Below are positions 14,598-47,922 of a DNA stretch of 62,205 nucleotides, piece by piece. The number at the start of each line of letters is the position of its first letter. Within the stretch, counting starts at the first letter, position 1. The position numbers were made by a program, and so were the translations under genes. Location of the stretch: NCBI GenBank assembly GCA_052139595.1, contig JBKQWK010000018.1, forward strand, positions 1 to 62,205. Direction: 5' to 3'. Below the pieces are notes generated by a model. The model worked only from the letters and a program-made list of their open reading frames with translations, was not told the origin of the DNA and searched no databases. The stretch is from Thermoleophilia bacterium (GTDB lineage Bacteria; Actinomycetota; Thermoleophilia; UBA2241).

Positions 14598-14600
14598 TTC

Positions 14601-30373: not shown

Positions 30374-30511
30374 TCACCCGCGTCCGGCTGCACGCCGACA
30401 GCAAGAATGCCATCAGTGCACAGTGGCGCGACCCTCCCCGCCGTTGCTGAACTCGTATCGTAGTATAAATCGGATCGTCAAACCGCCCTGCCGACGCCGC
30501 CTGTGCGCGAG

Positions 30512-30938: not shown

Positions 30939-32528
30939 GTGAACCTGGCGCACAGCCGAGCAACGACGACGATCCGGGCACTCTTCGGCGCCCTCGCGAT
31001 CGTCGTCGTTGCCACTCTGGCGACCGCCTGCGGATCCGGTTCAACCACATCTACAGTGAACGCGACTGGCTCAAAGACCGGCTCCCCGGTGCCGTCGGCG
31101 CGCGCCAGCGGTTCGCTGGCCACCGGCAGCCAGCTGGCGACGTCCTCGGCAATCCCCCACGCCTCTCAGCAGTCCGACGTCTGGCACTTCGTCTCTGAAC
31201 CTTCGCTCCATCCGCCACGTGTCAACGTCACGGTCAACGCTGCCGGCACCGCCCCGGGCGATATCTTCGTGTCGCCGATGAGTACCACCATTACGATCGG
31301 CCAGGCCGCACCGATGATCGTCGACAACGCCGGTAACCCGATCTGGGTACATCCCTTACCGCCAGGAGTGGTGGCCACCAACTTTCGCGTCCAGATGTAC
31401 CGCGGCAAACCGGTTCTCACGTGGTGGCAGGGACGCATTATGCCGCAAGGCTATGGCGAGGGCATCGACATCATCGCCAACAGCTCCTACCAGACGATTG
31501 CCACGGTGAAGGCCGGCAACGGCTATCAGACCGACCTGCACGAGTTTGCTCTCACGCCACAGGGTACAGCGCTCATCAGCGGTTACCGGCCGCAAACGTA
31601 TGACACCACGGCCGTGGGCGGCTCGCGCAAGGGCACGCTGCTCGACTCAGTTGCCCAGGAAGTCGACGTGCAAACAGGACAGGTGCTCTTTCAATGGGAT
31701 CCGATGGATCACGTCCCCCTGACCGACACTCACGCGACGCTGTTCAAGGGCATGTGGGATCCCTACCACGTAAATTCAATCGAGCTTGGTTCGCACGGTG
31801 ACATACTCATTTCGGCACGCAATACGTGGACCATCTATGACGTGAATCTCAGAAGTGGCGCCATCGTGTGGCAGCTCGGCGGCAAGCAGACGAGCTTCAG
31901 GCTGTCGGCCGGTGTGCGCTTCGCCTTTCAGCACGACGCTCAGTTCGAGGGGCCAAACCTGATCAGCGTCTTCGATAACGAGGCGGGGCCGAACGTGGGG
32001 CCGCAGTCGCGGGCTCTTCTTTTGCGGCTCAGTATGACGACGATGACGGCCACCGTTGTGGACCAGTACACGCATGTTGGCGTGCTCGCCAACAGTCAAG
32101 GCAGCGTGCAGCTCCTGGCCAACGGCGACGTGTTTGTCGGCTGGGGGGCGCAGCCCGTCTATTCGGAGTTCACCCGCAACGGTCGCCTGCTCTACGACGC
32201 CCGCTTTCCCGGCGTTGATCAAAGCTACCGCGCCTTTCGCTCGCTCTGGGTCGGGCACCCGGCCGGCCGGCCGGCCGTCGCGCTGCGCGCGTCGGCCGGT
32301 GCAGCCGGCCATACGACCGTGTATGCGAGCTGGAACGGAGCGACACAGGTCGCGCGCTGGCAGGTGCTCGCCGGCGCCAGCGCCAATCAACTCTCGCCAG
32401 TTACGTCGCAGGCGCGCAACGGCTTTGAAACGGCCGTGACGACAACGGCCGCCGGCCCTTTCTTCGCGGTGCGCGCCCTTAATGCCGCCGGACAGATGCT
32501 CGGTACGTCGCGGACGGTCAGGGAGTAA
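30939..32528 (+). CDS. Arylsulfotransferase (ASST) family lipoprotein
   Basis: Lipobox LATAC-G. MWDPYHVNSIE and a repeated beta-propeller-like pattern typical of ASST proteins. Confidence 0.65.
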   Translation: MNLAHSRATTTIRALFGALAIVVVATLATACGSGSTTSTVNATGSKTGSPVPSARASGSLATGSQLATSSAIPHASQQSDVWHFVSEPSLHPPRVNVTVNAAGTAPGDIFVSPMSTTITIGQAAPMIVDNAGNPIWVHPLPPGVVATNFRVQMYRGKPVLTWWQGRIMPQGYGEGIDIIANSSYQTIATVKAGNGYQTDLHEFALTPQGTALISGYRPQTYDTTAVGGSRKGTLLDSVAQEVDVQTGQVLFQWDPMDHVPLTDTHATLFKGMWDPYHVNSIELGSHGDILISARNTWTIYDVNLRSGAIVWQLGGKQTSFRLSAGVRFAFQHDAQFEGPNLISVFDNEAGPNVGPQSRALLLRLSMTTMTATVVDQYTHVGVLANSQGSVQLLANGDVFVGWGAQPVYSEFTRNGRLLYDARFPGVDQSYRAFRSLWVGHPAGRPAVALRASAGAAGHTTVYASWNGATQVARWQVLAGASANQLSPVTSQARNGFETAVTTTAAGPFFAVRALNAAGQMLGTSRTVRE

Positions 32529-32658
32529 GAGAGAACCCGGCCGAGCCGGCGCAGCCCGGACACAGCCGCGAAGACACGAGCGGATGAGCCCTGACAGAAC
32601 GGCAGGAAAGCGAGCGCGAGTGGGGTCGCCCACTCTCGCTCGCCTCTCGCCGAGGCCG

Positions 32659-34074: not shown

Positions 34075-37026
34075 TCAGACCTCGTTCGCACTGACGACGA
34101 CGGCAAACGGCACGCCGAGCGCCGCGAAGTGCTGCTGCCCACAACGTACCTTGTCTGCCTCGCTGGTGCGCAGCTTGAGAAAGTCACGTGTGCCCTTGGT
34201 CTCGCGTACGAGGTAGAGCGGTCCGCCATCTTCTTTGAGGATCGCCCAGTCGGGGTTGTACTTGCCGACCGGCGTGTCGATCTCAAACCAGCGCGGCAGC
34301 TTGACGAACAGCTTGATGTCGTCGCGCGCGTCGAGCTGACGGGCAAACTCGCGCTCGACCTCGGAGTCGTAGGCGACGTACTCATAGACCGAGTTGTGCA
34401 CCGGCAGTGCGCTCAAGTAGTTGACCAGCTCTTCATTCTTGAAGAGCAGCATCTGCCACTCTGCCTCGGTACCGGTGCCGCCAACGCGCTCGTACTTGAT
34501 GCCGTCGACGAGCAGGCGGTGCAGCTCGTGCTTGAGGATCGTCGCGACGGCATCGAGAAACTGCTGCGGGTTGTGAAACAGCTCGCCCACGCGGCCGGAG
34601 GCGCGCAGAATGCGCACCAGCGTCGAGCGCGTCAGCTCCGTCTCATTTTGCAGGTAGGCAAGCACGTCGGGGATCGGTTCGTCGGCGTGTTCGACGCGTT
34701 CTTCGGCGGCGCTTGACGGTGCCGCCGTAACGCCGCCCTTTTCGACACTGAGCCGGCCGGCGCTGACGCGAATACGCGGCTTGTCGATCGCCGGCATGAG
34801 CTTGATGGCATCGACAGCGTGCTTGACGAGTTCCTCACTGTCGAACTCAACGTGGTAGGTGGTCCTGGGCTTGATGCGGTCCCAGAGCGCCTTGAACTCC
34901 GGCGTGAGCGTGACTTCGCGACGCAGACGATTGGTCCTCTCGTCGCGGTCGCGGCGGATGTGGCGCTCGATCTTATAGGCCGAGAGCAGGTCGATGACCG
35001 CCGGCGCAAGCTCTGCGTGCGCCGGCGGCAGCTCAAGTGCGAAGCCGGCCCGCCGGGGGTCAAACGCTGGCTGGATGCGGCCGGCTGAGTCGAGCAGCTT
35101 CTGCTCGACAAGGGCCGCGCGTAGCTCTTCGGCGGCGGCGCGGCCGATAGGCTGCTCGCCGCCGTCGACCACGCGGCTGAGCTTGGCAAACGCGGTCAGT
35201 GGCACCTTGCCGAAGGTGACGCCACAGTCCTCTTCGTATTCGCTCTGCAGGGCACGGGCGAACTCCTCATAGCTTTCGTTGGCCATCACGTAGAGGCGAT
35301 TGATCGACTCATCGAAGACACGCTTGCCGTCCTGATCGACCGGCAGGCGCAAGCCGCGGCCGATCTCCTGACGCTTCTTGATCGCACTGCGCGTCTCATT
35401 CAGGGTGCAGATCTGAAAGACGTTGGGGTTGTCCCAGCCTTCGCGCAGCGCTGAGTGGCTAAAGATGAAGCGCAGCGGCTCATCGACGGAGAGGAGCCGC
35501 TCCTTGTCTTGCATGATGAGGGCATAAACATCGTCGTCGGCCTGCGTGTCACGGCCTTCGCGTGAATCCTTGACGACACCCTTCTTATCCTGGGCAAAGT
35601 AGCCGTTGTGGAGGCGCTCGACCGGTTCTTTGAGCCAGGCAAGCGCCGCATACTGCGGCTCGCGCGCCAGCGCCGCCAGTTCGGCCTCAAACACCTGGGC
35701 GAACTTGCCTTTGGCCGGGTGGCCGGCCTCGTCGTAGTCGCGATAGTTGGCCACCCGATCGACGAAGAACAGCGAGAGCACCTTGATGCCGCGCTCTCTG
35801 ACCTCGAGTTCCTTGTCGAGGTGACGACGGATCGTGTGCTTGATCTGTGCCCGCCAGATGTCGTCGCGCAGGCCGCCCATCTCTTCGCCCAGGCGCAGCG
35901 TGCGACCGTTGCTGAAGCGCACGAACTCGGCGCCCGGCTCGGCGTTGATCTCGGCGACCTCGAAGCCATCCGCGTAGGCGGCGCGCTCGCTCGACAGTGC
36001 GTAGAGGTCGGCGCCGCTCTTTACCGTCAGTGACTTCTCCTTGGGGCCGCCGTTCGTCTGCACCTGCAGACGCAGCTTGGCCTTGATACCGTTTTCGTAC
36101 TCGATGCGCTCGACGCGTACGAAGGCGTCATTGGCGGCGCCTTCGGCGACGGTGCTGGCGACGACGATCTGCTTGACGAGCTTAAGCTCAAAGGCGCGCA
36201 CCGGATCGAGCCGGTAGACGAGGTTATAGACGTTGCGGTGGGTGGCCGAGTAGCGCAGCGTGCACAGCGGGTTGAGCGCCCGGATCGCCTCCTGCGCCTT
36301 GTCGGTCGAGTCGACGCTCTGCGGTTCGTCGATGATTACGATCGGCCGGGCCGCCTGCACGAACTCGATGGGCTGGCGGCCCGAGAGCCGGTCGCTCTCC
36401 TTGTAGATCACGTTGCTCTTCTGCTCATCCTCGGTGCCGGTGAAGTTCTTGCGAAAGGCGTCAATGTTGATGATCAGGATCTGCAGCGTGGTGGACGTCG
36501 CAAACTGGCGCAGGCGGTTGACGCGCCTCGCGTCGTACACAAAGTGCTCGAACGGCAGGTTGTTATACAGGGCGCGGAAGTGCTCGGCCGTGATCTCGAT
36601 GTTCTTGAGCACGCCCTCGCGGATGGCCACGCTGGGCACCACGATGACGAACTTCTGGAACCCGTAGCGCTGCGAGAGCTCGAAGATGGTGCGCAGGTAC
36701 ACGTAGGTCTTGCCGGTGCCGGTCTCCATCTCGACGGTGAAATCGCCTGACGCCAACGAGGCCGAAGGACGCAGGCCGTTGCGAAGCTGGATATCGCCGA
36801 GGTTGGCCAGGATTTCTTCGTCGAGCAGGTGCAGGCGGTTGCCGATGCCCAGTTCGTTCTCCATGCCTGGCAGGCGAAGCTGAAGGCCGACATCGCTGGT
36901 GACGGTGAACTCCGTGCGGCAGGTCTCTTGGCCCTTGAACAGATCGCAGACGGCCTCGATGGCGTCTTTCTGAAAGCTCATGTGGTCATCGGTGTATGGG
37001 TTCTCGAAGTGCAGTTTCATGGTCAT
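34075..37026 (-). CDS. Type III restriction enzyme Res subunit (SF2 helicase plus PD-(D/E)xK nuclease)
   Basis: METGTGKTYVY Walker A and VIIDEPQS DEAH-variant box. Helicase C-terminal motifs (FIFSHSALREGWDNPNVF). C-terminal nuclease motif YNPDWAIL...LVRETKG. Confidence 0.9.
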   Translation of the reverse strand: MTMKLHFENPYTDDHMSFQKDAIEAVCDLFKGQETCRTEFTVTSDVGLQLRLPGMENELGIGNRLHLLDEEILANLGDIQLRNGLRPSASLASGDFTVEMETGTGKTYVYLRTIFELSQRYGFQKFVIVVPSVAIREGVLKNIEITAEHFRALYNNLPFEHFVYDARRVNRLRQFATSTTLQILIINIDAFRKNFTGTEDEQKSNVIYKESDRLSGRQPIEFVQAARPIVIIDEPQSVDSTDKAQEAIRALNPLCTLRYSATHRNVYNLVYRLDPVRAFELKLVKQIVVASTVAEGAANDAFVRVERIEYENGIKAKLRLQVQTNGGPKEKSLTVKSGADLYALSSERAAYADGFEVAEINAEPGAEFVRFSNGRTLRLGEEMGGLRDDIWRAQIKHTIRRHLDKELEVRERGIKVLSLFFVDRVANYRDYDEAGHPAKGKFAQVFEAELAALAREPQYAALAWLKEPVERLHNGYFAQDKKGVVKDSREGRDTQADDDVYALIMQDKERLLSVDEPLRFIFSHSALREGWDNPNVFQICTLNETRSAIKKRQEIGRGLRLPVDQDGKRVFDESINRLYVMANESYEEFARALQSEYEEDCGVTFGKVPLTAFAKLSRVVDGGEQPIGRAAAEELRAALVEQKLLDSAGRIQPAFDPRRAGFALELPPAHAELAPAVIDLLSAYKIERHIRRDRDERTNRLRREVTLTPEFKALWDRIKPRTTYHVEFDSEELVKHAVDAIKLMPAIDKPRIRVSAGRLSVEKGGVTAAPSSAAEERVEHADEPIPDVLAYLQNETELTRSTLVRILRASGRVGELFHNPQQFLDAVATILKHELHRLLVDGIKYERVGGTGTEAEWQMLLFKNEELVNYLSALPVHNSVYEYVAYDSEVEREFARQLDARDDIKLFVKLPRWFEIDTPVGKYNPDWAILKEDGGPLYLVRETKGTRDFLKLRTSEADKVRCGQQHFAALGVPFAVVVSANEV

Positions 37027-37030
37027 CCTC

Positions 37031-38983
37031 CTACAGGCTCCTCACGTTTTCCAGACCGTTCTGCTGGAGAATGGCGGCCAGGTTGGTCTTGGCAACGTCA
37101 TCGGCCTCCGGCGGCGCACCTTTCTTGGAAGGCCGAGTGAACGCGCTGTCGCGGAAGACGACCTGGGATTCACCCACGGGGGCCAGTTCCTTGTGCCACG
37201 CGGCGATGCCCAGCGCCAGCGATTCCACCTCGGCGGTGGCGATCTGTTCGGCGAGGCAGACCAGGAGGACACCTGCGCCGATGCTGTGGACCGTCTTGCC
37301 CGCAACGCACTTCTGCTCGATGGGCACGGTAAGGTCCAGGCCGAGCTTCAAGAGCAGCTCGAAGAGAATGTCCTGCTCTGTGCGGTCGGCCTTCAGGTGC
37401 TCGGTGTGCTCATGGAGCGTTGTCGCAAGGTTGTCGCGGTCCGGCTCCCACGCTCGGATGTTGCTGGAGGCCAGCTTGAAGACGCGGAAACCGAGGTCAC
37501 CCGCGAACATGGGGTTTTCTTCTCGGGTCTTCTTCCCCGCACGGCGCAGACGTTCTTTGCATACCTCTGCGAGATTTCGGGGTTTCTTCAGCTTGTCGCA
37601 GAAAGCGGCGGCCGTCTTCTGATCCTTGTTCTCCGGGTCAAGCGGCTCGGGAAGTTGCACAAGGATATAGCGTCTGGCTCCTCCGTCGTCCTTGTTCTGC
37701 CGAAGTACCGCGTGGCCCGTCGTCCCCGAACCAGCAAAGAAATCGAGGATCAGGGCATCTTCGTCTTTCTCGTCATTGATCGTGAGCGATAAGAGTTTTG
37801 CGATCAGGCCCACCGGCTTAGGAAACGAGAAGACGCCATCGCCGAGCAGCAGTTCCATCTCTTTCGAGCCCTCCTGATTAAAGGGGCCAATCATAATGGA
37901 GAGAGGCTTCATCTCTCGCATGTCACCGTTTTCGTCCTTCAGGTACTGTTTTACCCTGACGCTGACCTTCCCGTTCGTTTCATTGACGACGACCTCATCG
38001 TTGGCGATAGCGGCTTCAACTCGATCTTTAGCCCAGATCCACTGCTTCTCTGGCCAAATCTCGCGTCCGTTGATTGTGATCGGGTATCGAAGGTTCGGAC
38101 GGTCGTCTTTGCTGCTGGTGGCAAGTGGCTGCGTAACGAAGCCACCACGGGTCTTCAAGACGAAGTCCCGATCGAACGCGAATCCATGAGTGTTCAACGA
38201 CTCCAGCAGGTCCTCCATCTTCTCATCGGCGACATCCCAGCTAGCGCTCAGCAACGAGAACAAGAGATCCGACTTACCCAGTTTCGTCCCACCCGAGTTG
38301 GCGCGGATGAAGACTTCGACCACGTCGTCTTCCTTGTAGAGCGCAGGATTGTCGATGCTGTCCAGCTCCTGGTAGGTCAGAGCCTCGTCCATCTTGAACG
38401 TCCGGTCAATCAAATCCAGATGGTCCTTGAGCTTGTCGTTTTCATCCTTGGTCAGCGCAGGACCGGCGGCCGCCTGTAGGGAATCGAGCACTTCACGTTG
38501 TTTCTTGATGGTGAAGACGAGGTCCTTGAACTTCACCCAAGGGAAGGTGATAGAGGCAGGAGGCAGGAACTTGAACTTGTACTTCACGTCATCCGGGGCG
38601 GCGACCTCACCGCTCAAAATGTCAAAACACAGCTCTTTGCCCTCGAAACTACCGCACAGCCCAATGAAGAGGCTTTGCAAGCGCTGTTGGCCGTCGAGAA
38701 CGAGGCACTTCTTCTTGGCGTTGGTGGGCACATAGAAATCGCTCAGGCGGAGCGTGTACTTCCAGTTGTCGATGAACTTGCGATGACGGATTGTGCTCGT
38801 GGTCTTCCAAATCAACAACGTGCTGATGGGGTACTCGCGCAGGATAGAATCGAACAGCCTGCAAATCTGCTCTTCGCTCCAGACGAACGGCCGCTGGATG
38901 TTGGGAAGCCAGAAGCCTCCCTCCTCTTCGTCGTTGTTGAGAAATGTGACGATCTTCCTGATGGTCTGCTTCTGGTTCTTCAT
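37031..38983 (-). CDS. Fusion protein: N-terminal DUF262 (GmrSD-type ParB-like NTPase domain) plus the C-terminal half of a Type III Mod methyltransferase; no catalytic motif IV
   Basis: Residues 1-265 carry LPNIQRPFVWSEEQICRLFDSILREYPISTLLIW, DGQQRL and FIRANSGGTKLGKSDLLFSLL (DUF262). From about residue 270 come YPITINGREIWPEKQWIWAKDRV, FSFPKPVGLIAKLL and the SAM motif I LILDFFAGSGTTGHAV, as in beta-class Mod. No DPPY/NPPY/NPPF occurs anywhere in the 650 aa. Confidence 0.8.
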   Translation of the reverse strand: MKNQKQTIRKIVTFLNNDEEEGGFWLPNIQRPFVWSEEQICRLFDSILREYPISTLLIWKTTSTIRHRKFIDNWKYTLRLSDFYVPTNAKKKCLVLDGQQRLQSLFIGLCGSFEGKELCFDILSGEVAAPDDVKYKFKFLPPASITFPWVKFKDLVFTIKKQREVLDSLQAAAGPALTKDENDKLKDHLDLIDRTFKMDEALTYQELDSIDNPALYKEDDVVEVFIRANSGGTKLGKSDLLFSLLSASWDVADEKMEDLLESLNTHGFAFDRDFVLKTRGGFVTQPLATSSKDDRPNLRYPITINGREIWPEKQWIWAKDRVEAAIANDEVVVNETNGKVSVRVKQYLKDENGDMREMKPLSIMIGPFNQEGSKEMELLLGDGVFSFPKPVGLIAKLLSLTINDEKDEDALILDFFAGSGTTGHAVLRQNKDDGGARRYILVQLPEPLDPENKDQKTAAAFCDKLKKPRNLAEVCKERLRRAGKKTREENPMFAGDLGFRVFKLASSNIRAWEPDRDNLATTLHEHTEHLKADRTEQDILFELLLKLGLDLTVPIEQKCVAGKTVHSIGAGVLLVCLAEQIATAEVESLALGIAAWHKELAPVGESQVVFRDSAFTRPSKKGAPPEADDVAKTNLAAILQQNGLENVRSL

Positions 38984-39756
38984 GGGGCATCTCCTGCTAC
39001 GAGTCTTTGTTCAGCGGCGGCCAGTTCGGCTTCGAGCCGTTTGATTTTGAGATTCAGTTCCACAAGGCGGTTGATCTGCTTCTCCTTCTTCGCCTTGGCC
39101 CGCAAGACGGTCAGATCGCGCTGAAGCTGGGCGTGGGCGTCCAAGCCCTCCCGCACGGCAGAACCACGGTCGGTGGACTCCGGCGGCGCGAACGTGCCGG
39201 TGATCTCGGCTGCCTCCAGCGCCGCCACGCGGTCCAGCCAGCCCTGGTAGACCGCGTACAGGTTGCCGGAAGGCTGGCTGGCCAAAGGAAGACTGGCCAG
39301 GAACGCCGCTTCTTCCGCCGTGGGTGCGTCTGGCTGAAACGGGGCCGTGCGGCGGACGTCCTCGATCACCACCTTGCCCTTCTCGCCCTGCGACCAGCGC
39401 TTGTGGGCCAGCGACAGGCTGAAGGTATCACCGTGGGCGGTCACGAGCACGACCGGATAGGGCACCGCCCTGTGTATCAACTCGACCAACCGGGGCGGCT
39501 TGGCGGCGGCGCGCAGCACGACACTGAGCACGACGATTTCCAGGTACTCCCGTGCGTCGTCGCGGAAGATCGGCACGCCGATGTTGGTGGGCTTCAACGC
39601 CGCGATCCAGGTCAGCTCCTCGATGCCGTCCTGTAGGTATCGCTTGTCGGCGGGCGTGGGCGCGCCCTGCTCCAGCAGCAGCTTCTTGGGCACCCGCTGG
39701 TCCACGCGGGCGTCCGGCGGCAGCGCCAGGGCATTGATGAGCGTGGCGATGCTCAT
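38980..39756 (-). CDS. DUF4391-like protein
   Basis: The opening LINALALPPDARVDQRVPKKLLLEQGAPTPADKRYLQDGIEELTWIAALKP matches my memory of DUF4391 proteins found beside SNF2/Mod/Res genes. The C-terminus is a coiled coil. Confidence 0.55.
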   Translation of the reverse strand: MSIATLINALALPPDARVDQRVPKKLLLEQGAPTPADKRYLQDGIEELTWIAALKPTNIGVPIFRDDAREYLEIVVLSVVLRAAAKPPRLVELIHRAVPYPVVLVTAHGDTFSLSLAHKRWSQGEKGKVVIEDVRRTAPFQPDAPTAEEAAFLASLPLASQPSGNLYAVYQGWLDRVAALEAAEITGTFAPPESTDRGSAVREGLDAHAQLQRDLTVLRAKAKKEKQINRLVELNLKIKRLEAELAAAEQRLVAGDAP

Positions 39757-41366
39757 TTTCCCGGGTCCCCTTTCTGACGACGAGAGGATGAGCCCTTTGA
39801 TCCGTTTGTGAGCCCTTTGCGGCGCGATTTCCCGGCACCCGTGGATGTCCCCTTTGTCCCGTTTATGTCCCGTTCGCCGCCCGGTGTGGTGGCGTCTGCG
39901 GATGTCCCCTTTGTCCCCTTTATGTCCCCTTTGCTCGCGAGCACGTAGAACGCGCCCCGCCCCGTCTTGCCGATGCGTGCGACAACACCTTTTGCCACCA
40001 GATCGGCCAAGTCGCGAGATGCGGTTTTCTTGGTCGCTCCCGTTATCTCCTGGTACTCTTGATTGGTGATCCGGCCAGCGGCTTTCAGATGGGCCAGGAC
40101 CCGGCTCTGGCGTTCATTGAGGCCCAGGGCCGCAACGACCTGCTCCGTGAGCCAATCGCGCCAGACCGTAACCGAGAACTCACCGGCGCGCTGCTCGAAG
40201 TCGGGTTCGGGGAGCGAGTGCTCGACGCTCTCGCGGATCATCATCAACGTGCCGGTGCCGTACTTCTCGATATAGCGGGCCAGAAACATGGCTTCGCAAA
40301 TCCCAGCGTTGCGGGCCACGGAGCCGTGGGGCTCGCGCAACCGCTCAAGCGTCAGCGGTGGCGGAAGCACGCCGGGGTTCCAGACCTCCACTCGGTCGGC
40401 GAAAACGGAAACCTGCACTGCGCCTGCCAAGGCGTAGTCGCGGTGGGCGACGGCGTTGACGACGGCCTCGCGCACAACGTCCGGGGGGATTTCGTAGGCA
40501 ACTGGCGCCTGCGCGCTCAGGGCGCGGGTGCCGACGCTGCGGTTGATCACGGAGAGCACGAAGTCCGCCGCTCGGTCCACCTGCTCAAAGAGCCGACCCT
40601 TGAATATCTGGTAGTAGGGGGCTGGCCGCTGGATTTCCGTGCCGTGGAAGTGCATGCAGCGGACCTCAGCGCTGGACACGAATCGCTGGGGATCGCGGCC
40701 GAAGAGCAGCACGGCAGCGTTGGTGGGCTGCCCCTCCACGAGCAGGTGCAAGTGGGCCAACACGTCGGCCTTCGGGGTTCGCGCCGCCAACGGAAACTGC
40801 CGCTCGGCACGGGCGCAGCCAACGAAGTCGGAAACGGCTCGCCCATCAATGTCATCAAGGGTAGCGCCGGGACAGGGGCGCTCGTCGAATGGTCGGTTCT
40901 GGATGACGCCCACGCTTTCCAGGTAATCCACCAGGCTTGCGTAGACCGCATCGGTGAGGTCGGCAGTCTCGGCAAAGCGGCGGCGGATCAACTGCGCCCC
41001 AGCCTTGCGCACCAGGACCTGCATCTTCGGATGACGAGCGGAGTCCTTATCGCCCTTGACGAAGATCAGACGTTCCTTCCCGGTGGCGGTGGCGCGGTCA
41101 AACTCGCGTTCAGTGGGCGACAGGCCCTTAGCGTCCTCGTAGCCGTATTCGTTGCCGAACAGGCCCAGGTAGACGTCGCAACGGTCCACCTCTTTCAGAT
41201 ACACCTCATCTGCGCCGCGGCCGGAGGCGGGCAGGTCCTCGAACAGGAACACATCAAAGAAGCGCCCCAGGAGAGGGTCGCCCCGGATATAGTCCTTCAG
41301 CGCCCGGCGCTCGGCAGCGAGTTCCTTCTGGACTGAGCTGATGAAGATCCTCTTCTTGCCGCTCAT
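39753..41366 (-). CDS. DUF4062 - AlbA_2/Schlafen-like - HATPase_c_4 - wHTH protein with a basic KGT-repeat tail
   Basis: The N-terminal RIFISSVQKELAAERRALKDYI...VYLGLFGNEYGY is DUF4062-like. NAVAHRDYALAGAVQVSVFADRVEVWNPG and ARYIEKYGTGTLMM are typical of the RecG-C-terminal-like ATPase domain. wHTH: RITNQEYQEITGATKKTASRDLADLV. Confidence 0.65.
   Translation of the reverse strand: MSGKKRIFISSVQKELAAERRALKDYIRGDPLLGRFFDVFLFEDLPASGRGADEVYLKEVDRCDVYLGLFGNEYGYEDAKGLSPTEREFDRATATGKERLIFVKGDKDSARHPKMQVLVRKAGAQLIRRRFAETADLTDAVYASLVDYLESVGVIQNRPFDERPCPGATLDDIDGRAVSDFVGCARAERQFPLAARTPKADVLAHLHLLVEGQPTNAAVLLFGRDPQRFVSSAEVRCMHFHGTEIQRPAPYYQIFKGRLFEQVDRAADFVLSVINRSVGTRALSAQAPVAYEIPPDVVREAVVNAVAHRDYALAGAVQVSVFADRVEVWNPGVLPPPLTLERLREPHGSVARNAGICEAMFLARYIEKYGTGTLMMIRESVEHSLPEPDFEQRAGEFSVTVWRDWLTEQVVAALGLNERQSRVLAHLKAAGRITNQEYQEITGATKKTASRDLADLVAKGVVARIGKTGRGAFYVLASKGDIKGTKGTSADATTPGGERDINGTKGTSTGAGKSRRKGLTNGSKGSSSRRQKGDPGK
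39843..39928. repeat. 29-nt direct repeat (28/29 identical, 57-nt period) inside the 3' end of the DUF4062 gene
   Basis: ggatgtcccctttgtccc(g/c)tttatgtccc occurs at 39843-39871 and 39900-39928 and encodes the (D)I(K/N)GTKGTS repeats. A related tgagccctttg doublet lies at 39789-39819. Confidence 0.85.
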
Positions 41367-44300
41367 GGCACCGCCTCCCCGTTACCATCAGGGAGCACGA
41401 CCAGGAAGGCAACGACCTCGAAATCGTTGATCCCCTGGAACTCGCCCTTCATGGCGTGGGTGCCGCCAGGCGTGAACAGGCTGGCGATGGCCCGCTCTTC
41501 CTTCTTACCGACGATCGAGGCGATCGCCTTGGCGAGCAGGTCCTGGGCGGCCCGCATGTCACGGCCGTCCTTCGTGGCCTTGTCGAAACGGGCGCTGGCC
41601 CCAGCATCGGGCATGTCGCGGCCGATGGAGAGCCGTTTCAGCCGGTCGAGTGTCTGCTTGGCCTGGGTGAACGGCAGCAAGACCGCGCCGTCGTCGCCGA
41701 CATGCACGACGTAATGCGGCGCCAAGGGATAGCCTGGCTCGATGGCCTTCAGCGCCCCCTCGCCCACGGCGCGGAGGCAGAAGATCACGCCTGGTGGGAT
41801 AGCCGCCTCGTCGTTTCCCTGGGCCGTGGTGACGGCGAACGTGCCGGGCGGGAGCTTTTCGAGTTGGCCAGGGTGTTCCTTGAGGAAGCCGGAGAGGTCA
41901 ATGCGGAAGTCGTTCAGGGTGAGATCGGCGATGGAAACGCCGCTCGACAGGTCTTCGAGGTCGATGACGGCATCCTGGAGCTTGAGGAGCTGCTTGCGAC
42001 GGTACTCCAGGTCGTTCATCTGGTTGCCCGACTGGTGCTCGATGATATTCTCTTCGCCAGTGGCGGAGATGTCCAAGAGAACCATTCGGCCGCTGACCCG
42101 CTGTTCGAGGTTGATGTACTCCTCCAACTCGATGTTCGGCCAGAAGTTGATGAGCTGGATCCGCTCGTTCACGGATCCGATGCGGTCGATCCGGCCGAAG
42201 CGCTGGATGATACGGACGGGATTCCAGTGGATGTCGAAGTTGATGACGGTATCGCAGTCCTGGAGATTCTGACCCTCGCTGATGCAGTCGGTGGCGATGA
42301 GCAAGTCCACCTCGCCTTCCTCAGCTAGGTCCTCGGGGCGTTCCTTGGCGCGGGGTGAGAAAGCCGTGATGATGCTGGTGAAGTCCTTGCGGAGTTTAGG
42401 TAGCGTAGCCTGGTTATGGCCCGCCCCTGTAACCAAGGCCGAGTGCAGGCCAAGTTCATCCAGCGCCCAGGCGGACAATTCGCCGTACAGGTAGTGGGCG
42501 GTGTCGGCGAACGCCGTGAAGACGAGAAACTTGCGGTTATCGGGGTTGATCGGCTGACGACACTTGCACCGGATGACCTCGCGGAGGGCATCGAGCTTGG
42601 CGTCTCGCACTGCGCTCACCTGCTTTGCGGCCGAGAGGAGCGTGGCAAGCCGGTTGCGGTCCTCGATGAGGTCCTGCCTCCAGCGGATGTGGTCCACGTC
42701 CCGAAGCAGCACCTTGACCTTGCGCCCGACCAACAGGCTCTCGAAGGCCGGATCGTCCACGTCTACGTCTTCAATGTCAACCTCGTCGACCGACTCGGCG
42801 TGGGCGTCGAGCTTGGTCAGAGTGGCTTCCACGTCGGCAAGTTGGCGGGTAAGCGTAAGGGCGAACGAGGTAACCGAGCTTTCCATCCGTTTCAGGACGT
42901 TGACCCGTAGCAGGTGGATCAGGCTTTCTTCGCGGTCCACCTGGCGGAAGAAGCTCTCGCCACCGCGAATTTTGGTGCTGTACTTGGCGTCGTAGGCCGC
43001 CTGCCGGTGCGGTAGGACATATCGCAGGGGCGCGTAGGCGCTGAGGTTGAGGCGGCGGATCTCGTTGTTGATCTCGCGGATGGAACGGAACTCACCCGCC
43101 TTGTCCACGTCGGACTTGATGTTGACGGGCTTCAGACGCTCGGGGAACCGGCCCGTCTCGCGGGTGCCGTAGTATTTCTCGACGTGCTTGCGGGACCGCG
43201 CGATGGTCAACAGGTCCAGCAGCTTGAAGTAGTCGAAACCGAGCATGTCGATCAACCGTGCCGGGCGCCGCTCGGCCTCTTCTAAGGCCAACCAGCGGTT
43301 GAATTGGAGTTGGGCCTGGCGCACCGTGGCTTCGACGCTGGGGACACCTTGGTCGAGCAGGGCAGTATCATCGCCCTCGGTCACGAAGGCGATCTGGTTC
43401 TTCAGGTCGGCAAGCCGGTTGTTGACCGGAGTGGCCGAGAGCATCAGGACGCGGGTCTTGACCCCCTCCTTGATGATCCGCCGCATGAGGCGATCATAAC
43501 GGGTTTCGCGATCGTTGTGGCTGGACTTGTTGCGGAAGTTGTGCGACTCGTCGATGACCACCAGGTCGTAGTTGCCCCAGTTGACGTGGGCCAGGTCGAT
43601 GTCGCCGGAGTTGCCACCATCGCGGGAAAGGTCCGTGTGGTTGAGTACGTCGTAGCCGAAACGGTCGGCAGCCAGGAAGTTACGGCGGTCGTTGGCCTTG
43701 TAGAGCGTCCAGTTGTCGCGGAGCCGCTTCGGCACCAGGACCAGCACGCGGTCGTTGCGCAGATCGTAGTATTTGATGATAGCCAGGGCCTCGAACGTCT
43801 TGCCGAGGCCAACGCTATCGGCGATGATACACCCGCCAAGGCGCTCCAGCTTGTCGATCGCCCCGACCACTCCATCCCGCTGAAACTTGTAGAGCTTCTT
43901 CCACACCGTGGTGTTGCGGATGCCGGTGGCCGACTTGACGATGCGTTCCTCGTCCAGTTCGTCGCCGAGGTCCTTGAAAACACGGAAGAGGGTCAGGTAG
44001 TAGATGAGCGAGGGGGGCTTGGGATCGAAAAGATTCTGGAGCCCCGAAAGGAAGGCCCCCTTCTGTTGGTCGGAAACGGGCAGCGTATTCCAAAGGCTGG
44101 TGAACCACGCCCCAAGGACAGCCGATTCATCGGGGCGCTCGGAGCACTGGATCAGGCTGAATTGATTCCCTGGGGTCAGGCCCAACCCTTCGGTCGTAAA
44201 CGCGCAGTTGCCGGTAATGACCAAGCGAAGCTCCAATTCCGGCTTCCCGACGATGAGAATGGACTGCGGCAGCAAGGTGGGGGCGCTTCGCAACTCGACC

Positions 44301-44617
44301 TTTTCCTTGATCCACGCGGCGCACTCCCGAGCCAGCCAGCGGACTTGAAGGCGGTTACGAAAGGCGCGGTCGTTGTCGGAGCCGGTCAGGCCGAGATCGG
44401 CACCATTGATGGCGGGGAGGACCAAGCGGCAGGTGGTGAGCTTCTCCAGGACTTCGCGCAGCTCGGCAAAGGCGAAGAGGGAAAACGCCGGTGACGCCAG
44501 GTCAAGCGACGACGACGACGCGAGGGCCTGACGCAGTTCGTCGATCACGCGGTCGTTGCCTGTGTTCTTAATAAGTTTCATGGGTGCCGTCTTGACGGGG
44601 GCCGAAAGTGGCGTCAT
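41363..44617 (-). CDS. SNF2-family helicase with an N-terminal degenerate PLD-like domain
   Basis: LADSVGLGKTFEALAII (motif I), VVIDESHNFRN (DExH), LMLSATPVNNRL, and C-terminal helicase motifs (HWNPVRIIQRFGRIDRIGS). The N-terminus has ITGNCAFTTEGLG but no H-x-K. Confidence 0.85.
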   Translation of the reverse strand: MTPLSAPVKTAPMKLIKNTGNDRVIDELRQALASSSSLDLASPAFSLFAFAELREVLEKLTTCRLVLPAINGADLGLTGSDNDRAFRNRLQVRWLARECAAWIKEKVELRSAPTLLPQSILIVGKPELELRLVITGNCAFTTEGLGLTPGNQFSLIQCSERPDESAVLGAWFTSLWNTLPVSDQQKGAFLSGLQNLFDPKPPSLIYYLTLFRVFKDLGDELDEERIVKSATGIRNTTVWKKLYKFQRDGVVGAIDKLERLGGCIIADSVGLGKTFEALAIIKYYDLRNDRVLVLVPKRLRDNWTLYKANDRRNFLAADRFGYDVLNHTDLSRDGGNSGDIDLAHVNWGNYDLVVIDESHNFRNKSSHNDRETRYDRLMRRIIKEGVKTRVLMLSATPVNNRLADLKNQIAFVTEGDDTALLDQGVPSVEATVRQAQLQFNRWLALEEAERRPARLIDMLGFDYFKLLDLLTIARSRKHVEKYYGTRETGRFPERLKPVNIKSDVDKAGEFRSIREINNEIRRLNLSAYAPLRYVLPHRQAAYDAKYSTKIRGGESFFRQVDREESLIHLLRVNVLKRMESSVTSFALTLTRQLADVEATLTKLDAHAESVDEVDIEDVDVDDPAFESLLVGRKVKVLLRDVDHIRWRQDLIEDRNRLATLLSAAKQVSAVRDAKLDALREVIRCKCRQPINPDNRKFLVFTAFADTAHYLYGELSAWALDELGLHSALVTGAGHNQATLPKLRKDFTSIITAFSPRAKERPEDLAEEGEVDLLIATDCISEGQNLQDCDTVINFDIHWNPVRIIQRFGRIDRIGSVNERIQLINFWPNIELEEYINLEQRVSGRMVLLDISATGEENIIEHQSGNQMNDLEYRRKQLLKLQDAVIDLEDLSSGVSIADLTLNDFRIDLSGFLKEHPGQLEKLPPGTFAVTTAQGNDEAAIPPGVIFCLRAVGEGALKAIEPGYPLAPHYVVHVGDDGAVLLPFTQAKQTLDRLKRLSIGRDMPDAGASARFDKATKDGRDMRAAQDLLAKAIASIVGKKEERAIASLFTPGGTHAMKGEFQGINDFEVVAFLVVLPDGNGEAVP

Positions 44618-44627
44618 GCTCGCCGCT

Positions 44628-44855
44628 TCAACGCGGTTGGTGGGGTCGGCGCCAGCCGGTTGGAAACTTTCCTGACTCCTCGATTTGCCGGAGCAGTTCC
44701 TCCAGGTCGGCCTTCTTGAAGAGTCGGTAGCCGCTGATCGGGTTACGGTACACGGCCATTTTGCCGTCTCGATGCCAGTTCCTGAGCGTGTTGGGCGATA
44801 CGCCTAGAAACTTGGCCGCCTGCTTGATCGTCACGAACTCGTCCAGCTTGGTCAT
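44628..44855 (-). CDS. Excisionase/MerR-type HTH DNA-binding protein
   Basis: MTKLDEFVTIKQAAKFLGVSPNTLRNWHRDGKMAVYRNPISGYRLFKKADLEELL is a typical HTH_17/excisionase-family domain. The gene ends 10 nt before the SNF2 start. Confidence 0.7.
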   Translation of the reverse strand: MTKLDEFVTIKQAAKFLGVSPNTLRNWHRDGKMAVYRNPISGYRLFKKADLEELLRQIEESGKFPTGWRRPHQPR

Positions 44856-47180: not shown

Positions 47181-47348
47181 ATGTCGCCTGGATACCCGTC
47201 CGGCTCTGCCGGGACCCTTTTCATCGTTGTCGCCTGCCTCGTTGTCGCAGGTGTAATGTCGTACGTCACCGCAACCTACGGACACTGGCCTTTTATAGTG
47301 GCCGGCATCCTCGTGGGCCTGTTGGCCGTGTCGTCCATTAGCAAGTGA
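47181..47348 (+). CDS. Small two-TM membrane protein
   Basis: MSPGYPSGSAGTLFIVVACLVVAGVMSYVTATYGHWPFIVAGILVGLLAVSSISK. It ends 12 nt before the DUF1257 start. Confidence 0.3.
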   Translation: MSPGYPSGSAGTLFIVVACLVVAGVMSYVTATYGHWPFIVAGILVGLLAVSSISK

Positions 47349-47359
47349 TAGGAAAAACC

Positions 47360-47731: not shown

Positions 47732-47922
47732 GCCGAAGCATCGAAATCACCGTCAACACGAAGGGCGAGACCACCGTCACGACCAAGGGTTTCGTCGGAT
47801 CGTCATGCCGGGAAGCAAGCAAGTTCGTCGAGGAGGCCCTCGGCCAGCGGCTCGACGAGCGGCTCACTGTGGAGTTCCATCAGGTCCAATCCGTCGAGCA
47901 GAACGCTCAGCAGCGGGCCTGA
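47728..47922 (+). CDS. DUF2997-like small protein
   Basis: MSRSIEITVNTKGETTVTTKGFVGSSCREASKFVEEALG. ATGA overlap with the DUF1257 stop; this pair commonly co-occurs. Confidence 0.5.
   Translation: MSRSIEITVNTKGETTVTTKGFVGSSCREASKFVEEALGQRLDERLTVEFHQVQSVEQNAQQRA

What the first reader, a model, noticed from the sequence alone, without database searches (positions are those of the whole stretch)
34075..44855. Six-gene HTH / SNF2 / DUF4062-AlbA_2 / DUF4391 / DUF262-Mod / Type III Res operon with no intact methyltransferase: candidate undescribed defence system
Six minus-strand genes are translationally coupled. Junctions are 4-nt overlaps at 41366/41363, 39756/39753 and 38983/38980, and gaps of 10 nt or less at 44628/44617 and 37031/37026.

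The Res motor-nuclease looks intact (GTGKT, IIDEPQ, PDWAIL...ETKG). I found no DPPY/NPPY/NPPF catalytic motif in any of the six products, so a restriction-type translocase-nuclease has no cognate modification activity.

The core SNF2 + DUF4391 + Mod + Res neighbourhood is one I recall as recurrent but not functionally characterised. This version differs in two ways. A DUF4062/Schlafen-like ATPase-wHTH gene is inserted, and the methylase core is replaced by a DUF262 domain. In GmrSD, BrxU and SspE, DUF262 is the NTP-dependent sensor of modified DNA.

One reading is a Type III Res retargeted into a modification-dependent or modification-independent hybrid. Another is a decaying R-M locus.
Basis: partly seen in the sequence, partly recalled or inferred. 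Interest (0 to 1): 0.85.

Follow-up and report, generated by a model that had tools for sequence, protein, structure and literature searches.

The report
Deletion-scarred Type III restriction operon
This is a damaged copy of a widespread restriction-modification operon, not a new methylase-free defence design: a 1.7-kb deletion fused two neighbouring genes and removed the methylase, and the "intact" nuclease gene was probably joined from two genomes by the assembler.

Summary
The six minus-strand ORFs, their junctions, the domains and the missing DPPY motif are all real.

**The DUF262-Mod gene is a deletion scar.**
- Residues 1-278 match the N-terminal half of a BrxU/GmrSD-like protein (87% identity, no gaps).
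- Residues 279-650 match residues 277-637 of a Type III Mod (80% identity).
- In relatives these are two adjacent, complete genes: SNF2-DUF4391-GmrSD-Mod-Res.
- Every other evaluable related locus has a Mod that starts at or near its own N-terminus. Where I read full-length relatives (L001, L002), DPPY is present.
- No other protein in a 5.8-billion-protein database covers both halves.
- The identical fusion occurs in three other assemblies of the same population, so it is a real deletion of about 1.7 kb in one lineage.

**The window's Res is a mosaic.**
- Codons 1 to about 109 belong to the operon's native Res lineage. The rest belongs to a different Res lineage.
- The crossover lies in the Walker-A coding stretch, near 36700.
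- The contig's tetranucleotide signature switches at the same place.
- Three sister assemblies, including a 385-kb long-read contig, continue with the native res and different downstream genes.
- The contig is most likely chimeric.

**Verdict.** This is a decaying member of an uncharacterised but common SNF2-DUF4391 Type III R-M family that hosts embedded defence genes. Interest is low to moderate.

The parts
44628..44855 (-). Small HTH protein (75 aa, MerR/excisionase type), probably the operon's regulator.
   Evidence: Pfam HTH_17/MerR. PADLOC mad1 at 3e-14. NCBIfam excisionase-family DNA-binding domain. The same 75-aa gene is called in L087. HTH homologues lie upstream of SNF2 in L007, L034 and L057.
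41363..44617 (-). SNF2-family helicase (1084 aa), the conserved first core gene of the operon family.
   Evidence: Pfam SNF2-rel_dom + Helicase_C. PADLOC C3a139 'HKD+Snf2' at 3.5e-120. 503 relatives were found in GTDB species genomes. The 80 best are 71-89% identical, and DUF4391 follows SNF2 in every locus where the contig allows it to be judged.
39753..41366 (-). DUF4062 + HATPase_c_4 + wHTH protein (537 aa), a Schlafen/COG2865-like cargo gene sitting in slot 1 between SNF2 and DUF4391.
   Evidence: Pfam hits. The same slot holds DUF4062 homologues in L007, L009, L025, L026 and L048, and is empty in most loci: 13 of 82 carry an insert. Homologues reach 85% identity.
38980..39756 (-). DUF4391 protein (258 aa), the signature core gene of the family. 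Its function is unknown.
   Evidence: Pfam DUF4391 at 2e-73. 1383 clusters at 50% identity in the representative search. AlphaFold2 mean pLDDT 96.6. No PDB or BFVD fold match. No PADLOC or NCBIfam model.
38150..38983 (-). 5' part of the fusion ORF: codons 1-278 of a BrxU/GmrSD-like (HEC-05-type) gene. The DUF262 domain with DGQQR is kept. The DUF1524 nuclease half is lost.
   Evidence: 87% identity, ungapped, to aa 1-278 of the 562-aa GmrSD-like protein of L002. 81-88% identity to many DUF262+DUF1524 proteins that cover only 43% of the query. Matches BrxU 7P9K residues 16-292. PADLOC HEC-05.
38149..38151 (-). Deletion junction, at fusion ORF nt 833/835. About 1.7 kb is missing relative to relatives.
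   Evidence: blastn: ORF nt 1-833 match the GmrSD gene nt 1-833, and nt 835-1951 match mod from nt ~829. Both parental types share 'CGTG' at the join. The expected loss is 1694 nt if the parent resembled L002.
37031..38149 (-). 3' part of the fusion ORF, equivalent to Mod residues 277-637. It keeps the target-recognition region, motif I (FAGSG) and the C-terminal domain. Motif IV (DPPY) and the N-terminal half of the methylase fold are absent.
   Evidence: 80% identity to L001 Mod aa 270-637. Full-length relatives have IDPPYNTG at aa 122 and FxGxG at aa 405-414. Matches EcoP15I Mod 4ZCF residues 354-605.
36701..37026 (-). res codons 1 to ~109, from lineage A, the Res type native to SNF2-DUF4391 operons.
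   Evidence: 55-95% identity to the Res of L001, L002 and L007, against ~40% to lineage B. 99.6-100% nucleotide identity to L085, L087 and L088 up to this point.
34075..36700 (-). res codons ~110-983, from lineage B, a different Type III Res clade. Probably from another genome.
   Evidence: Mostly 72-100% identity per 40-aa window (60-62% at aa 721-760) to P0245/P0250/P0251, against 20-75% to lineage A. Sister assemblies diverge here to ~70% nucleotide identity. The hybrid protein P0243 is on record only for the 62205-bp contig. The tetranucleotide signature switches here.

Best explanation
**What the locus is.** It is a degenerate member of a widespread operon family. The core is SNF2 helicase, DUF4391, Type III Mod and Type III Res of lineage A. 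Other defence genes are embedded in three intergenic slots.

**The inferred ancestor.** The ancestor of this copy had seven genes: HTH, SNF2, a DUF4062/Schlafen-like cargo, DUF4391, a BrxU/GmrSD-like cargo, Mod and Res.

**The deletion.**
- An illegitimate, in-frame deletion of about 1.7 kb joined codon 278 of the GmrSD-like gene to codon ~277 of mod.
- It removed the DUF1524 nuclease of the first gene.
- It removed the catalytic half of the methyltransferase (motifs IV-VIII, including DPPY) of the second.

**Why the cell survives (inferred from Type III biology).**
- Restriction needs Mod to recognise DNA and to stabilise and position Res.
- The lesion therefore most likely abolishes methylation and restriction together.
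- That leaves a tolerated r-m- locus in which SNF2, DUF4391 and the Schlafen-like gene may still act.

**The Res ORF.**
- The Res ORF in this contig is a hybrid. Only its first ~109 codons belong to this operon.
- The rest, and everything below ~36.7 kb, most likely comes from a second genome.
- The assembler probably joined the two at a stretch of about 33-45 nt, conserved between the two Res lineages, that encodes the Walker A motif.
- In the real organism the operon ends in a lineage-A res.
For: **Shown: the fusion is a deletion scar.**
- The 650-aa query has only partial homologues. Full Mods cover its C-terminal 58% at 64-80% identity. DUF262+DUF1524 proteins cover its N-terminal 43% at 81-88% identity. 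Nothing covers both halves.
- L002-L004, L024, L061, L069 and L077 have separate GmrSD and Mod genes between DUF4391 and Res.
- The junction is sharp at aa 278/279 and nt 833/835.
- Full-length Mods carry DPPY at aa 122, inside the deleted part.
- In all 74 loci where the start of mod can be judged, Mod begins at its own residue 1. The same holds, from residue 12, for DUF4391 relatives at only 31-35% identity.

**Shown: the fusion is real.**
- The identical protein is encoded in L085 (NCBI short-read assembly) and L087 (385-kb long-read contig). L088, a second noisy long-read contig, matches the window across this region at 97% nucleotide identity, with the ORF split by frameshifts.

**Shown: Res is a mosaic.**
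- Sliding-window identity switches lineage at aa ~110-120.
- The nucleotide alignment puts the crossover right after ...GGCACCGGCAAGACCTACGT.

**Evidence for a chimeric contig.**
- Tetranucleotide correlation is 0.91-0.98 within 1-36.7 kb and 0.93-0.95 within 36.7-62.2 kb, but 0.78-0.86 between the two blocks.
- The sign of (r to L093 minus r to the L087 downstream region) flips between the 4-kb windows centred at 36 and 38 kb.
- Block Y is collinear with ENA contig_11625. Gene spacing is 21768 nt there against 21771 nt in the window. That contig carries on past a lineage-A res into different genes with a Y-like signature.
- Block X is syntenic with L093, from another organism, between 12906 and 32551.

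**From the literature.**
- Mod recognises the site, directs Res, and is needed for stable Res (PMC3874151).
- Embedded GmrSD/BrxU-type genes in defence operons are documented (bioRxiv 10.1101/2024.01.29.577857; PMC3710099).
Against: - The fusion is in frame and stays open for 372 codons after the join. It keeps a complete DUF262 domain, the Mod target-recognition region and the SAM-binding motif I. Some residual or new function is therefore not excluded.
- The copies are 99.6-100% identical, so selection on the fusion cannot be measured.
- Loss of restriction is inferred from EcoP1I/EcoP15I biology. It was not tested here.
- Chimerism is inferred from composition and from sister assemblies, not from read mapping. 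A natural recombination between two res genes at the same conserved stretch would give the same sequence.
- The second parent, a lineage-B res with its own 5' end next to the GNAT gene, was not found in any collection.
- Whether the native lineage-A res is intact in the real organism is uncertain. L087 and L088 are noisy, but their frameshifts lie at different positions, which points to sequencing error.
Confidence: 0.8

Rival explanations
1. Functional neo-fusion. The DUF262 NTPase/sensor domain, joined to the Mod target-recognition and Res-binding parts, forms a new subunit. It would recruit the Type III Res to DNA without methylation, giving a modification-dependent or modification-independent hybrid restriction enzyme.
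For: - The fusion is in frame and the whole DUF262 domain with DGQQR is kept.
- The break in Mod falls after the N-terminal catalytic half and before the central region, so that region, motif I and the C-terminal domain are all retained.
- The fusion gene persists in several samples of the population.
- Translational coupling to DUF4391 (4-nt overlap) and to res (4-nt gap) is preserved.
Against: - It is a singleton among 5.8 billion proteins and about 90 related loci. All copies are near-identical, so there is no evolutionary retention to point to.
- An in-frame outcome has a prior of one in three for any deletion.
- In beta-class methyltransferases the N- and C-terminal segments together form one Rossmann-type domain (established knowledge). 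The remnant is therefore half a fold and is likely unstable.
- GmrSD/BrxU defence needs the DUF1524 HNH nuclease, as shown by the mutants reported. That nuclease is lost here.
Confidence: 0.06
2. The hybrid res is a natural recombinant, not an assembly artefact. In this reading one strain really carries lineage-A 5' and lineage-B 3' res, after recombination at the conserved Walker-A stretch. That event would have brought block X and block Y together, either as a large horizontal transfer or as a rearrangement.
For: - R-M genes are known to shuffle by recombination at conserved motifs (established knowledge).
- By comparison with lineage-B relatives, the stretch identical in both parents is only about 33-45 nt. 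That is shorter than the largest k-mers of common assemblers.
- The L085 contig ends 43 nt past the crossover, which is compatible with a branch in that sample's assembly graph.
Against: - The composition switch at the crossover spans tens of kilobases of housekeeping-type genes on both sides.
- Three sister assemblies, two of them long-read, show the non-hybrid arrangement. One continues for ~350 kb.
- The hybrid protein is on record for this one contig only, and the hybrid junction was not found in JGI metagenomes.
- Every other SNF2-DUF4391 locus evaluated pairs with lineage-A Res, even at 31-35% DUF4391 identity.
Confidence: 0.17
3. The DUF262-Mod fusion itself is an assembly or sequencing artefact, produced by a collapsed or mis-joined region.
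For: - The contig appears to be mis-joined elsewhere.
- No homologue shares the fusion.
Against: - The same junction, with an identical 650-aa product, is present in an independent NCBI short-read assembly (L085, 99.95% identical over 5861 nt) and in an ENA long-read contig (L087). A second long-read contig from another sample (L088) aligns to the window across this region at 97% identity.
- The two joined genes share no similarity that could mislead an assembler.
Confidence: 0.02

Closest known systems
Classical Type III restriction-modification systems (EcoP1I, EcoP15I; PDB 4ZCF)
   Same: - mod and res are adjacent on one strand.
- Res has SF2 helicase motifs plus a C-terminal RE_endonuc nuclease.
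- Relatives' Mod is a beta-class N6-adenine methyltransferase, with DPPY in the N-terminal part and FxGxG in the C-terminal part. It is homologous to EcoP15I Mod and to 6K0W.
   Different: - The family has two extra conserved upstream genes, SNF2 and DUF4391, plus cargo slots.
- In this copy Mod lacks residues 1-276, and so lacks motif IV.
- Res in the window is a two-lineage hybrid.
BrxU / GmrSD / HEC-05 Type IV restriction enzymes (PDB 7P9K)
   Same: The N-terminal 278 aa are a DUF262 domain with DGQQR. They match BrxU at 1.7e-23 and PADLOC HEC-05 at 6e-57. The intact gene in relatives is embedded in a host defence operon, as BrxU is in BREX, Hma and Type I R-M.
   Different: - The linker and the DUF1524 HNH nuclease half are deleted here.
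- The host operon is Type III R-M. The cited embedding survey reports figures for Hma, BREX, DISARM and Type I.
Defence genes embedded in multi-gene immune operons (Payne et al. 2024 preprint; R-M-embedded RhuM/PrrC/DOC, Anantharaman et al. 2013)
   Same: Same-strand cargo sits between core genes. In this family the cargo includes GmrSD, Schlafen/AlbA_2-HATPase_c_4, DUF4062, YhcG/DUF1016, RhuM, AAA_21 and OLD-like ATPases, UvrD-like and SF1 helicases, Macro and Bro-N.
   Different: The host scaffold is an SNF2-DUF4391 Type III operon with three recurrent slots. I found no description of it in the papers I could search.
SNF2-plus-methyltransferase defence systems (DISARM DrmD, BREX BrxHI/BrxHII, Dpd DpdE)
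   Same: An SNF2-family helicase is encoded alongside a DNA methyltransferase in a defence operon. There are partial HMM hits to DrmD, BrxH and DpdE.
   Different: - All hits fall far below the family cut-offs. For example, DrmD scores 150 bits against a cut-off of 610.
- No other DISARM, BREX or Dpd core protein was hit in the six genes by Pfam or PADLOC.
- The partner here is a Type III Mod/Res pair plus DUF4391.

Membership tests
Type III R-M system | Res subunit with SF2 helicase/ATPase motifs and a C-terminal PD-(D/E)XK-type endonuclease. | tested here: met
   Pfam ResIII + RE_endonuc. PADLOC REase_III model positions 1-964 of 989, 1034 bits. GTGKT, DEPQ and D...ETK motifs are present. 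Caveat: the ORF is a hybrid of two Res lineages.
Type III R-M system | Mod subunit that is a complete beta-class N6-adenine methyltransferase, with motif IV (DPPY) and motif I (FxGxG). | tested here: not met
   Only motif I is present. No [DNS]PP[YFWH] occurs in any of the six products. The match covers only the C-terminal part of N6_N4_Mtase and of the PADLOC MTase_III model (277-620 of 621). Relatives have DPPY at aa 122.
Type III R-M system | Cognate hemi-methylation of an asymmetric site, and ATP-dependent cleavage between two inversely oriented sites. | not testable with these tools
   This needs methylome data and biochemistry.
GmrSD / BrxU Type IV restriction family | N-terminal DUF262 NTPase domain with DGQQR. 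| tested here: met
   Pfam GmrSD_N at 5e-29, profile positions 5-198 of 199. LDGQQRL lies at aa 96-102. Matches BrxU 7P9K.
GmrSD / BrxU Type IV restriction family | C-terminal DUF1524 HNH-type nuclease domain. | tested here: not met
   There is no GmrSD_C hit. The homology to 562-aa relatives ends at aa 278. Those relatives carry GmrSD_C and a DHIFP motif at ~aa 451.
SNF2-DUF4391 Type III operon family (unnamed; defined here from about 90 loci) | An SNF2 orthologue immediately followed by DUF4391 on the same strand. | tested here: met
   SNF2 is 71-89% identical to the 80 best loci. DUF4391 follows, here after one cargo gene, as also in L007, L025 and L048.
SNF2-DUF4391 Type III operon family (unnamed; defined here from about 90 loci) | A full-length Mod downstream of DUF4391. 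| tested here: not met
   In 74 of 74 evaluable loci Mod starts at its own residue 1. The seven distant loci that could be judged align from residue 12. Here Mod starts at the equivalent of residue 277.
SNF2-DUF4391 Type III operon family (unnamed; defined here from about 90 loci) | A lineage-A Res as the last gene. | tested here: inconclusive
   In the window only codons 1 to ~109 are lineage A. The same population's other assemblies (L085, L087, L088) carry lineage-A res throughout.
MADS (methylation-associated defence system) | The multi-gene mad1-mad8 set, including a methyltransferase. | tested here: not met
   Only the HTH hits mad1 (3e-14). Res gives a weak mad8 hit (8e-4). No other mad models were hit.
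DISARM | DrmA, DrmB (DUF1998) and DrmC together with DrmD/DrmE and a DrmM methyltransferase. | tested here: not met
   SNF2 gives partial DrmD/DrmA helicase-core hits well below the NCBIfam cut-off (150 against 610 bits). Neither Pfam nor PADLOC reported a DrmB/DUF1998 or DrmC hit among the six genes.

The most novel reading that the evidence does not exclude
In the real organism the in-frame GmrSD(DUF262)-Mod(C-terminal) protein may still assemble with the native lineage-A Res, and perhaps with SNF2 and DUF4391. It would then act as a methylation-free recognition subunit, turning a Type III enzyme into a sensor-driven restriction complex with no self-protecting methylase. My evidence does not exclude this. 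The ORF is open, the DUF262 domain and the Mod target-recognition and SAM-binding parts are intact, and the gene persists in several samples.
Probability: 0.05. Interest if true: 0.75.

Novelty: new member of a known kind. Interest (0 to 1): 0.28.

Why it matters
**For the finding as stated, the result is a correction.**
- The methylase-free hybrid architecture is a lineage-specific deletion scar.
- Part of the operon in this contig is probably an assembly chimera.
- It should not be catalogued as a new defence system.
- It is also a reminder that a conserved motif such as Walker A can seed mis-joins, which then produce plausible-looking intact ORFs.

**The parent family is worth more attention.**
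- SNF2-DUF4391-Mod-Res is a stable four-gene unit. It holds together down to 31-35% DUF4391 identity.
- I found 503 SNF2 relatives in species-level genomes spanning many phyla.
- It pairs with its own Res lineage and has three slots that collect other defence genes.
- DUF4391 has a confidently predicted fold with no structural neighbour.
- I found no model for DUF4391 in PADLOC 2.0 or NCBIfam, and no functional paper.
- What a chromatin-remodeller-type ATPase and DUF4391 add to a Type III enzyme is an open and testable question.
- This r-m- derivative is a natural Mod knockout in which SNF2, DUF4391 and the Schlafen-like gene remain.

Tried and rejected
- **Another methyltransferase in the window that could protect the host.** None was found in Pfam scans of about 55 ORFs.
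- **A named system in PADLOC or NCBIfam.** There were only component hits (REase_III, MTase_III, HEC-05, mad1, C3a139), and nothing for DUF4391.
- **Literature on DUF4391.** Two papers mention it. One lists it in an enrichment table. The other appears to use the name by mistake for DUF7941.
- **Sequence-profile and fold searches for DUF4391.** No significant PDB or BFVD match, despite a pLDDT of 96.6.
- **P0366 (1419 aa) as a possible SNF2-DUF4391 fusion.** Rejected. Its N-terminal part is not SNF2 and looks like an SF1-helicase cargo gene.
- **Finding the second parent of the hybrid res.**
  - The GNAT neighbour is not on record.
  - The hybrid junction gave no match in JGI metagenome contigs.
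  - A lineage-B-specific pattern gave no match there either.
  - The best lineage-B relative is only 83-87% identical.
- **Island boundaries and regulatory signals.** No tRNA was found, and promoter and terminator counts are at chance level.
- **Structure prediction with locus-derived DUF4391 sequences.** I redid it with hits from the representative search.
- **Misassembly as the origin of the ModL fusion.** Rejected because independent short-read and long-read assemblies share the junction.

Full report
**1. Checking the observation**

The six minus-strand ORFs are at the stated coordinates: 34075-37026, 37031-38983, 38980-39756, 39753-41366, 41363-44617 and 44628-44855. The last of these extends to 44930 if the ORF is opened at its TTG. 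Three junctions are ATGA overlaps and two are gaps of 10 and 4 nt.

Domain assignments from Pfam and PADLOC:

| Gene | Hits |
|---|---|
| Res | ResIII + RE_endonuc; PADLOC REase_III full length, 1034 bits |
| 650-aa protein | GmrSD_N/DUF262 at aa 15-245; only the C-terminal part of N6_N4_Mtase; PADLOC MTase_III model positions 277-620 of 621 |
| 258-aa protein | DUF4391, 2e-73 |
| 537-aa protein | DUF4062 + HATPase_c_4 + winged HTH |
| 1084-aa protein | SNF2 |
| 75-aa protein | MerR/excisionase-type HTH |

No product contains [DNS]PP[YFWH]. The 650-aa protein keeps motif I, DFFAGSGTT. Pfam scans of about 55 ORFs found no other DNA methyltransferase in the window.

**2. What the DUF262-Mod gene is**

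I searched the 650-aa protein against 5.8 billion proteins and found no homologue that covers both halves. There are two kinds of partial hit:
- Full Type III Mods of about 640 aa cover only its C-terminal 58%, at 64-80% identity.
- DUF262+DUF1524 proteins of about 563 aa cover only its N-terminal 43%, at 81-88% identity.

The neighbourhoods explain this. The Mod hit P0001 sits in SNF2-DUF4391-Mod-Res. The DUF262 hit P0033 sits in SNF2-DUF4391-GmrSD(562 aa)-Mod(628 aa)-Res.

The join is sharp:
- Residues 1-278 equal GmrSD residues 1-278 (87% identity, ungapped).
- Residues 279-650 equal Mod residues 277-637 (80% identity).
- At the DNA level, nt 1-833 match the GmrSD gene and nt 835-1951 match mod. 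This places the join at window 38149-38151. Both parental types share CGTG there.

Full-length relatives have IDPPYNTG at residue 122 and FxGxG at residues 405-414. The GmrSD relative has DGQQR at residue 97 and a DHIFP nuclease motif at about residue 451. A deletion of about 1.7 kb therefore removed two things. One is the DUF1524 nuclease. The other is the methyltransferase half carrying motifs IV-VIII. The deletion happened to stay in frame.

Against solved structures, aa 20-278 align to BrxU (7P9K) residues 16-292, and aa 320-602 align to EcoP15I Mod (4ZCF) residues 354-605.

**3. Is the fusion real, and how common is it?**

The identical 650-aa protein is encoded on independent assemblies:
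- L085, an NCBI short-read assembly, 99.95% identical over 5.9 kb.
- L087, a 385-kb ENA long-read contig.

L088, a second ENA long-read contig from another sample, matches the window across this region at 97% nucleotide identity. There the ORF is broken by frameshifts. The fusion is therefore not an assembly artefact.

It is confined to one near-clonal population. A scan of species-representative genomes with SNF2 found 503 relatives. I fetched the 80 best loci:
- DUF4391 follows SNF2 in every locus where the contig allows it to be judged.
- In all 74 loci where the start of mod can be judged, Mod begins at its own residue 1.
- Two other loci, L018 and L050, are visibly degenerate in other ways.

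DUF4391 relatives at only 31-35% identity still sit in SNF2-DUF4391-Mod-Res, with Mod aligned from residue 12 to its end.

**4. The operon family and its cargo**

The four core genes have three variable gaps between them:

| Slot | Loci with an insert | Cargo seen |
|---|---|---|
| SNF2 \| DUF4391 | 13 of 82 | DUF4062/Schlafen-like, a GmrSD_N protein, an RNase_H_2 + SF1-helicase protein of ~1140 aa |
| DUF4391 \| Mod | 24 of 74 | GmrSD, SLFN_AlbA_2-HATPase_c_4, YhcG/DUF1016, AAA_21, a UvrD-like helicase, Bro-N |
| Mod \| Res | 20 of 45 | RhuM, Schlafen-like, UvrD-like, an OLD-like ATPase, Macro |

This is the documented "embedded defence gene" phenomenon:
- Payne et al. report GmrSD-like genes, including HEC-05 (99.2% identical to BrxU), embedded in Hma, BREX and Type I R-M operons. 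They also show that both the DGQQR motif and the HNH motif are needed for defence.
- Anantharaman et al. describe RhuM, PrrC and DOC genes embedded in R-M operons.

The window's DUF4062 gene and its former GmrSD gene are both cargo of this kind. L007, a Planctomycetota MAG, has the closest architecture to the inferred seven-gene ancestor: HTH-SNF2-DUF4062-DUF4391-GmrSD-Mod-Res.

**5. The Res gene and the contig**

The window's Res is only 44-48% identical to the Res of all 80 family loci. It is 73-83% identical to a different Res clade. That clade occurs in two contexts: Mod-RhuM-Res, and SNF2(~950 aa, no DUF4391)-cargo-Mod-cargo-Res.

Sliding-window identity shows that the window's Res is a mosaic:
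- Residues 1 to ~110 are lineage A: 55-95% identity to L001, L002 and L007, and ~40% to lineage B.
- Residues ~120-983 are lineage B: mostly 72-100% per 40-aa window, against 20-75% to lineage A.

The nucleotide alignment puts the crossover directly after ...GAGATGGAGACCGGCACCGGCAAGACCTACGT, at about window 36700. By comparison with lineage-B relatives, this stretch of about 33-45 nt is conserved in both lineages and encodes Walker A.

L085, L087 and L088 are 99.6-100% identical to the window from 48985 down to this point. Beyond it they continue as pure lineage A, with different downstream genes: FGase, DUF6508 and metK.

Four further observations bear on the contig:
- The RNase_H_2 gene at 59906-60754 lies on the same 385-kb contig as ModL. 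The spacing there is 21768 nt, against 21771 nt in the window. The whole 36.7-62.2 kb block is therefore collinear with that contig, which then runs on for ~350 kb.
- Window 12906-32551 is syntenic, at ~90% identity, with L093 from another organism.
- Tetranucleotide signatures split the window at the same place. Correlation is 0.91-0.98 within 1-36.7 kb, 0.93-0.95 within 36.7-62.2 kb and 0.78-0.86 between the blocks.
- The upper block matches the L087 downstream region, which is absent from the window. The lower block matches L093. The preference flips between the 4-kb windows centred at 36 and 38 kb.

The hybrid protein is on record for this contig only. The hybrid junction has no match in JGI metagenome contigs.

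I conclude, with about 0.8 probability, that the contig is a chimeric join of two genomes inside res. A natural recombinant is the alternative, at about 0.17.

In L087 and L088 the lineage-A res has frameshifts at different positions. This indicates long-read noise, not a shared pseudogene.

**6. How it most likely works**

- **Shown:** the ancestral operon encodes a complete Type III pair plus SNF2, DUF4391 and cargo. This copy lost the Mod catalytic half and the GmrSD nuclease.
- **Established knowledge:** in Type III enzymes Mod recognises the site, directs Res to it, and is needed for stable Res (PMC3874151). In beta-class methyltransferases the N- and C-terminal segments form one Rossmann-type domain.
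- **Inferred:** the deletion abolishes methylation and restriction together. That is why it is tolerated, and the locus is r-m-. SNF2, DUF4391 and the Schlafen-like gene may retain activity.

The neo-functional reading cannot be excluded, but nothing supports it beyond an open frame. I give it about 0.05.

**7. DUF4391**

- The family has 1383 clusters at 50% identity with E <= 1e-3.
- AlphaFold2 with 75 sequences gives a mean pLDDT of 96.6. The model has an alpha/beta N-terminal domain (aa 1 to ~160) and three long C-terminal helices.
- Foldseek finds nothing significant in the PDB or BFVD.
- A sequence profile finds nothing in the PDB.
- PADLOC and NCBIfam have no DUF4391 model.
- The searchable literature has no functional statement.

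**8. Verdict**

- The headline interpretation is not supported. The fallback reading, a decaying R-M locus, is correct.
- The specific feature is a deletion-scarred, probably inactive member of a known kind of system, sitting on a probably chimeric contig.
- The parent SNF2-DUF4391 Type III family is common and uncharacterised. It is a better target for experiments than this copy.

Noticed in passing
window ~36700 (block X = 1-36700; block Y = 36701-62205): The contig has two compositional blocks that meet inside res. The lower block resembles L093 and carries housekeeping-type genes: futalosine/menaquinone, multihaem cytochromes, and a block of haem-biosynthesis (ALAD), aminotransferase, Rex and UbiD/UbiA genes. 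The upper block is collinear with a 385-kb ENA long-read contig. A chimeric assembly is likely.
   Followed up: yes
window 38980-39756; model mb325ab4e7e49: DUF4391 folds with very high confidence (pLDDT 96.6) into an alpha/beta domain plus three long helices. It has no significant structural neighbour in the PDB or BFVD. Invariant residues include W50 and R96, and E73, H95 and the P99-Y100-P101 run are nearly invariant.
   Followed up: partly
L005-L084 (loci related through SNF2): The SNF2-DUF4391-Mod-Res operon has three recurrent cargo slots holding varied defence-type genes: GmrSD, Schlafen-like, YhcG/DUF1016, RhuM, OLD-like and AAA_21 ATPases, UvrD-like and SF1 helicases, Macro and Bro-N.
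   Followed up: partly
L091 1436-13000; L092 2242-12985: The lineage-B Res clade has its own sister architecture. A shorter SNF2 (946-961 aa) with no DUF4391 is followed by cargo (DUF3800 or an OLD-like ATPase), then Mod, then RhuM or a Schlafen-like gene, then Res.
   Followed up: no
window 37103-37135 (ModL aa ~617-627): An in-frame 11-aa insertion (TRPSKKGAPPE) lies near the C-terminus of the Mod remnant. It is absent from the L001 and L002 Mods.
   Followed up: no
window 39786-39934 (C-terminal tail of the DUF4062 protein): Two overlapping, imperfect 92-nt direct repeat copies (~75% identity, 57-nt offset) encode a low-complexity Gly/Thr/Lys-rich tail (…GTKGTS…GTKGTS…). Most homologues lack this tail; they cover 88-96% of the query.
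   Followed up: no
window 44581-44617: Relatives' SNF2 proteins align from residue 12-13 of the window's ORF. The true start may therefore be M13 at 44581, which would widen the HTH-SNF2 gap from 10 to 46 nt.
   Followed up: no
window 47345-48266; L087 1064-1626: A small cluster upstream of the operon encodes DUF1257 and DUF123 (GIY-YIG-like) proteins, and in L087 also a DUF2997 protein. Further upstream lie an LRR protein, a PD-(D/E)XK protein, a 1221-aa FGE-sulfatase-domain protein, an RNase_H_2 protein and a UvrC-like GIY-YIG protein. An RNase_H_2 gene also flanks the operon in L002-L004.
   Followed up: no
P0366 (1419 aa, representative search): A DUF4391 domain is fused to the C-terminus of a large protein whose N-terminal part is not SNF2 and carries an SF1-helicase-like P-loop. 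It resembles the slot-1 cargo gene run into DUF4391. This is a single case and could be a read-through or a frameshift.
   Followed up: partly
L018 13228-13713; L050 13228-15094: Two other family loci are degenerate. In L018, DUF4391 is truncated and no Mod or Res was detected downstream. L050 shows an inversion that disrupts DUF4391 and mod. Decay of this operon is therefore not unique to the window's lineage.
   Followed up: no
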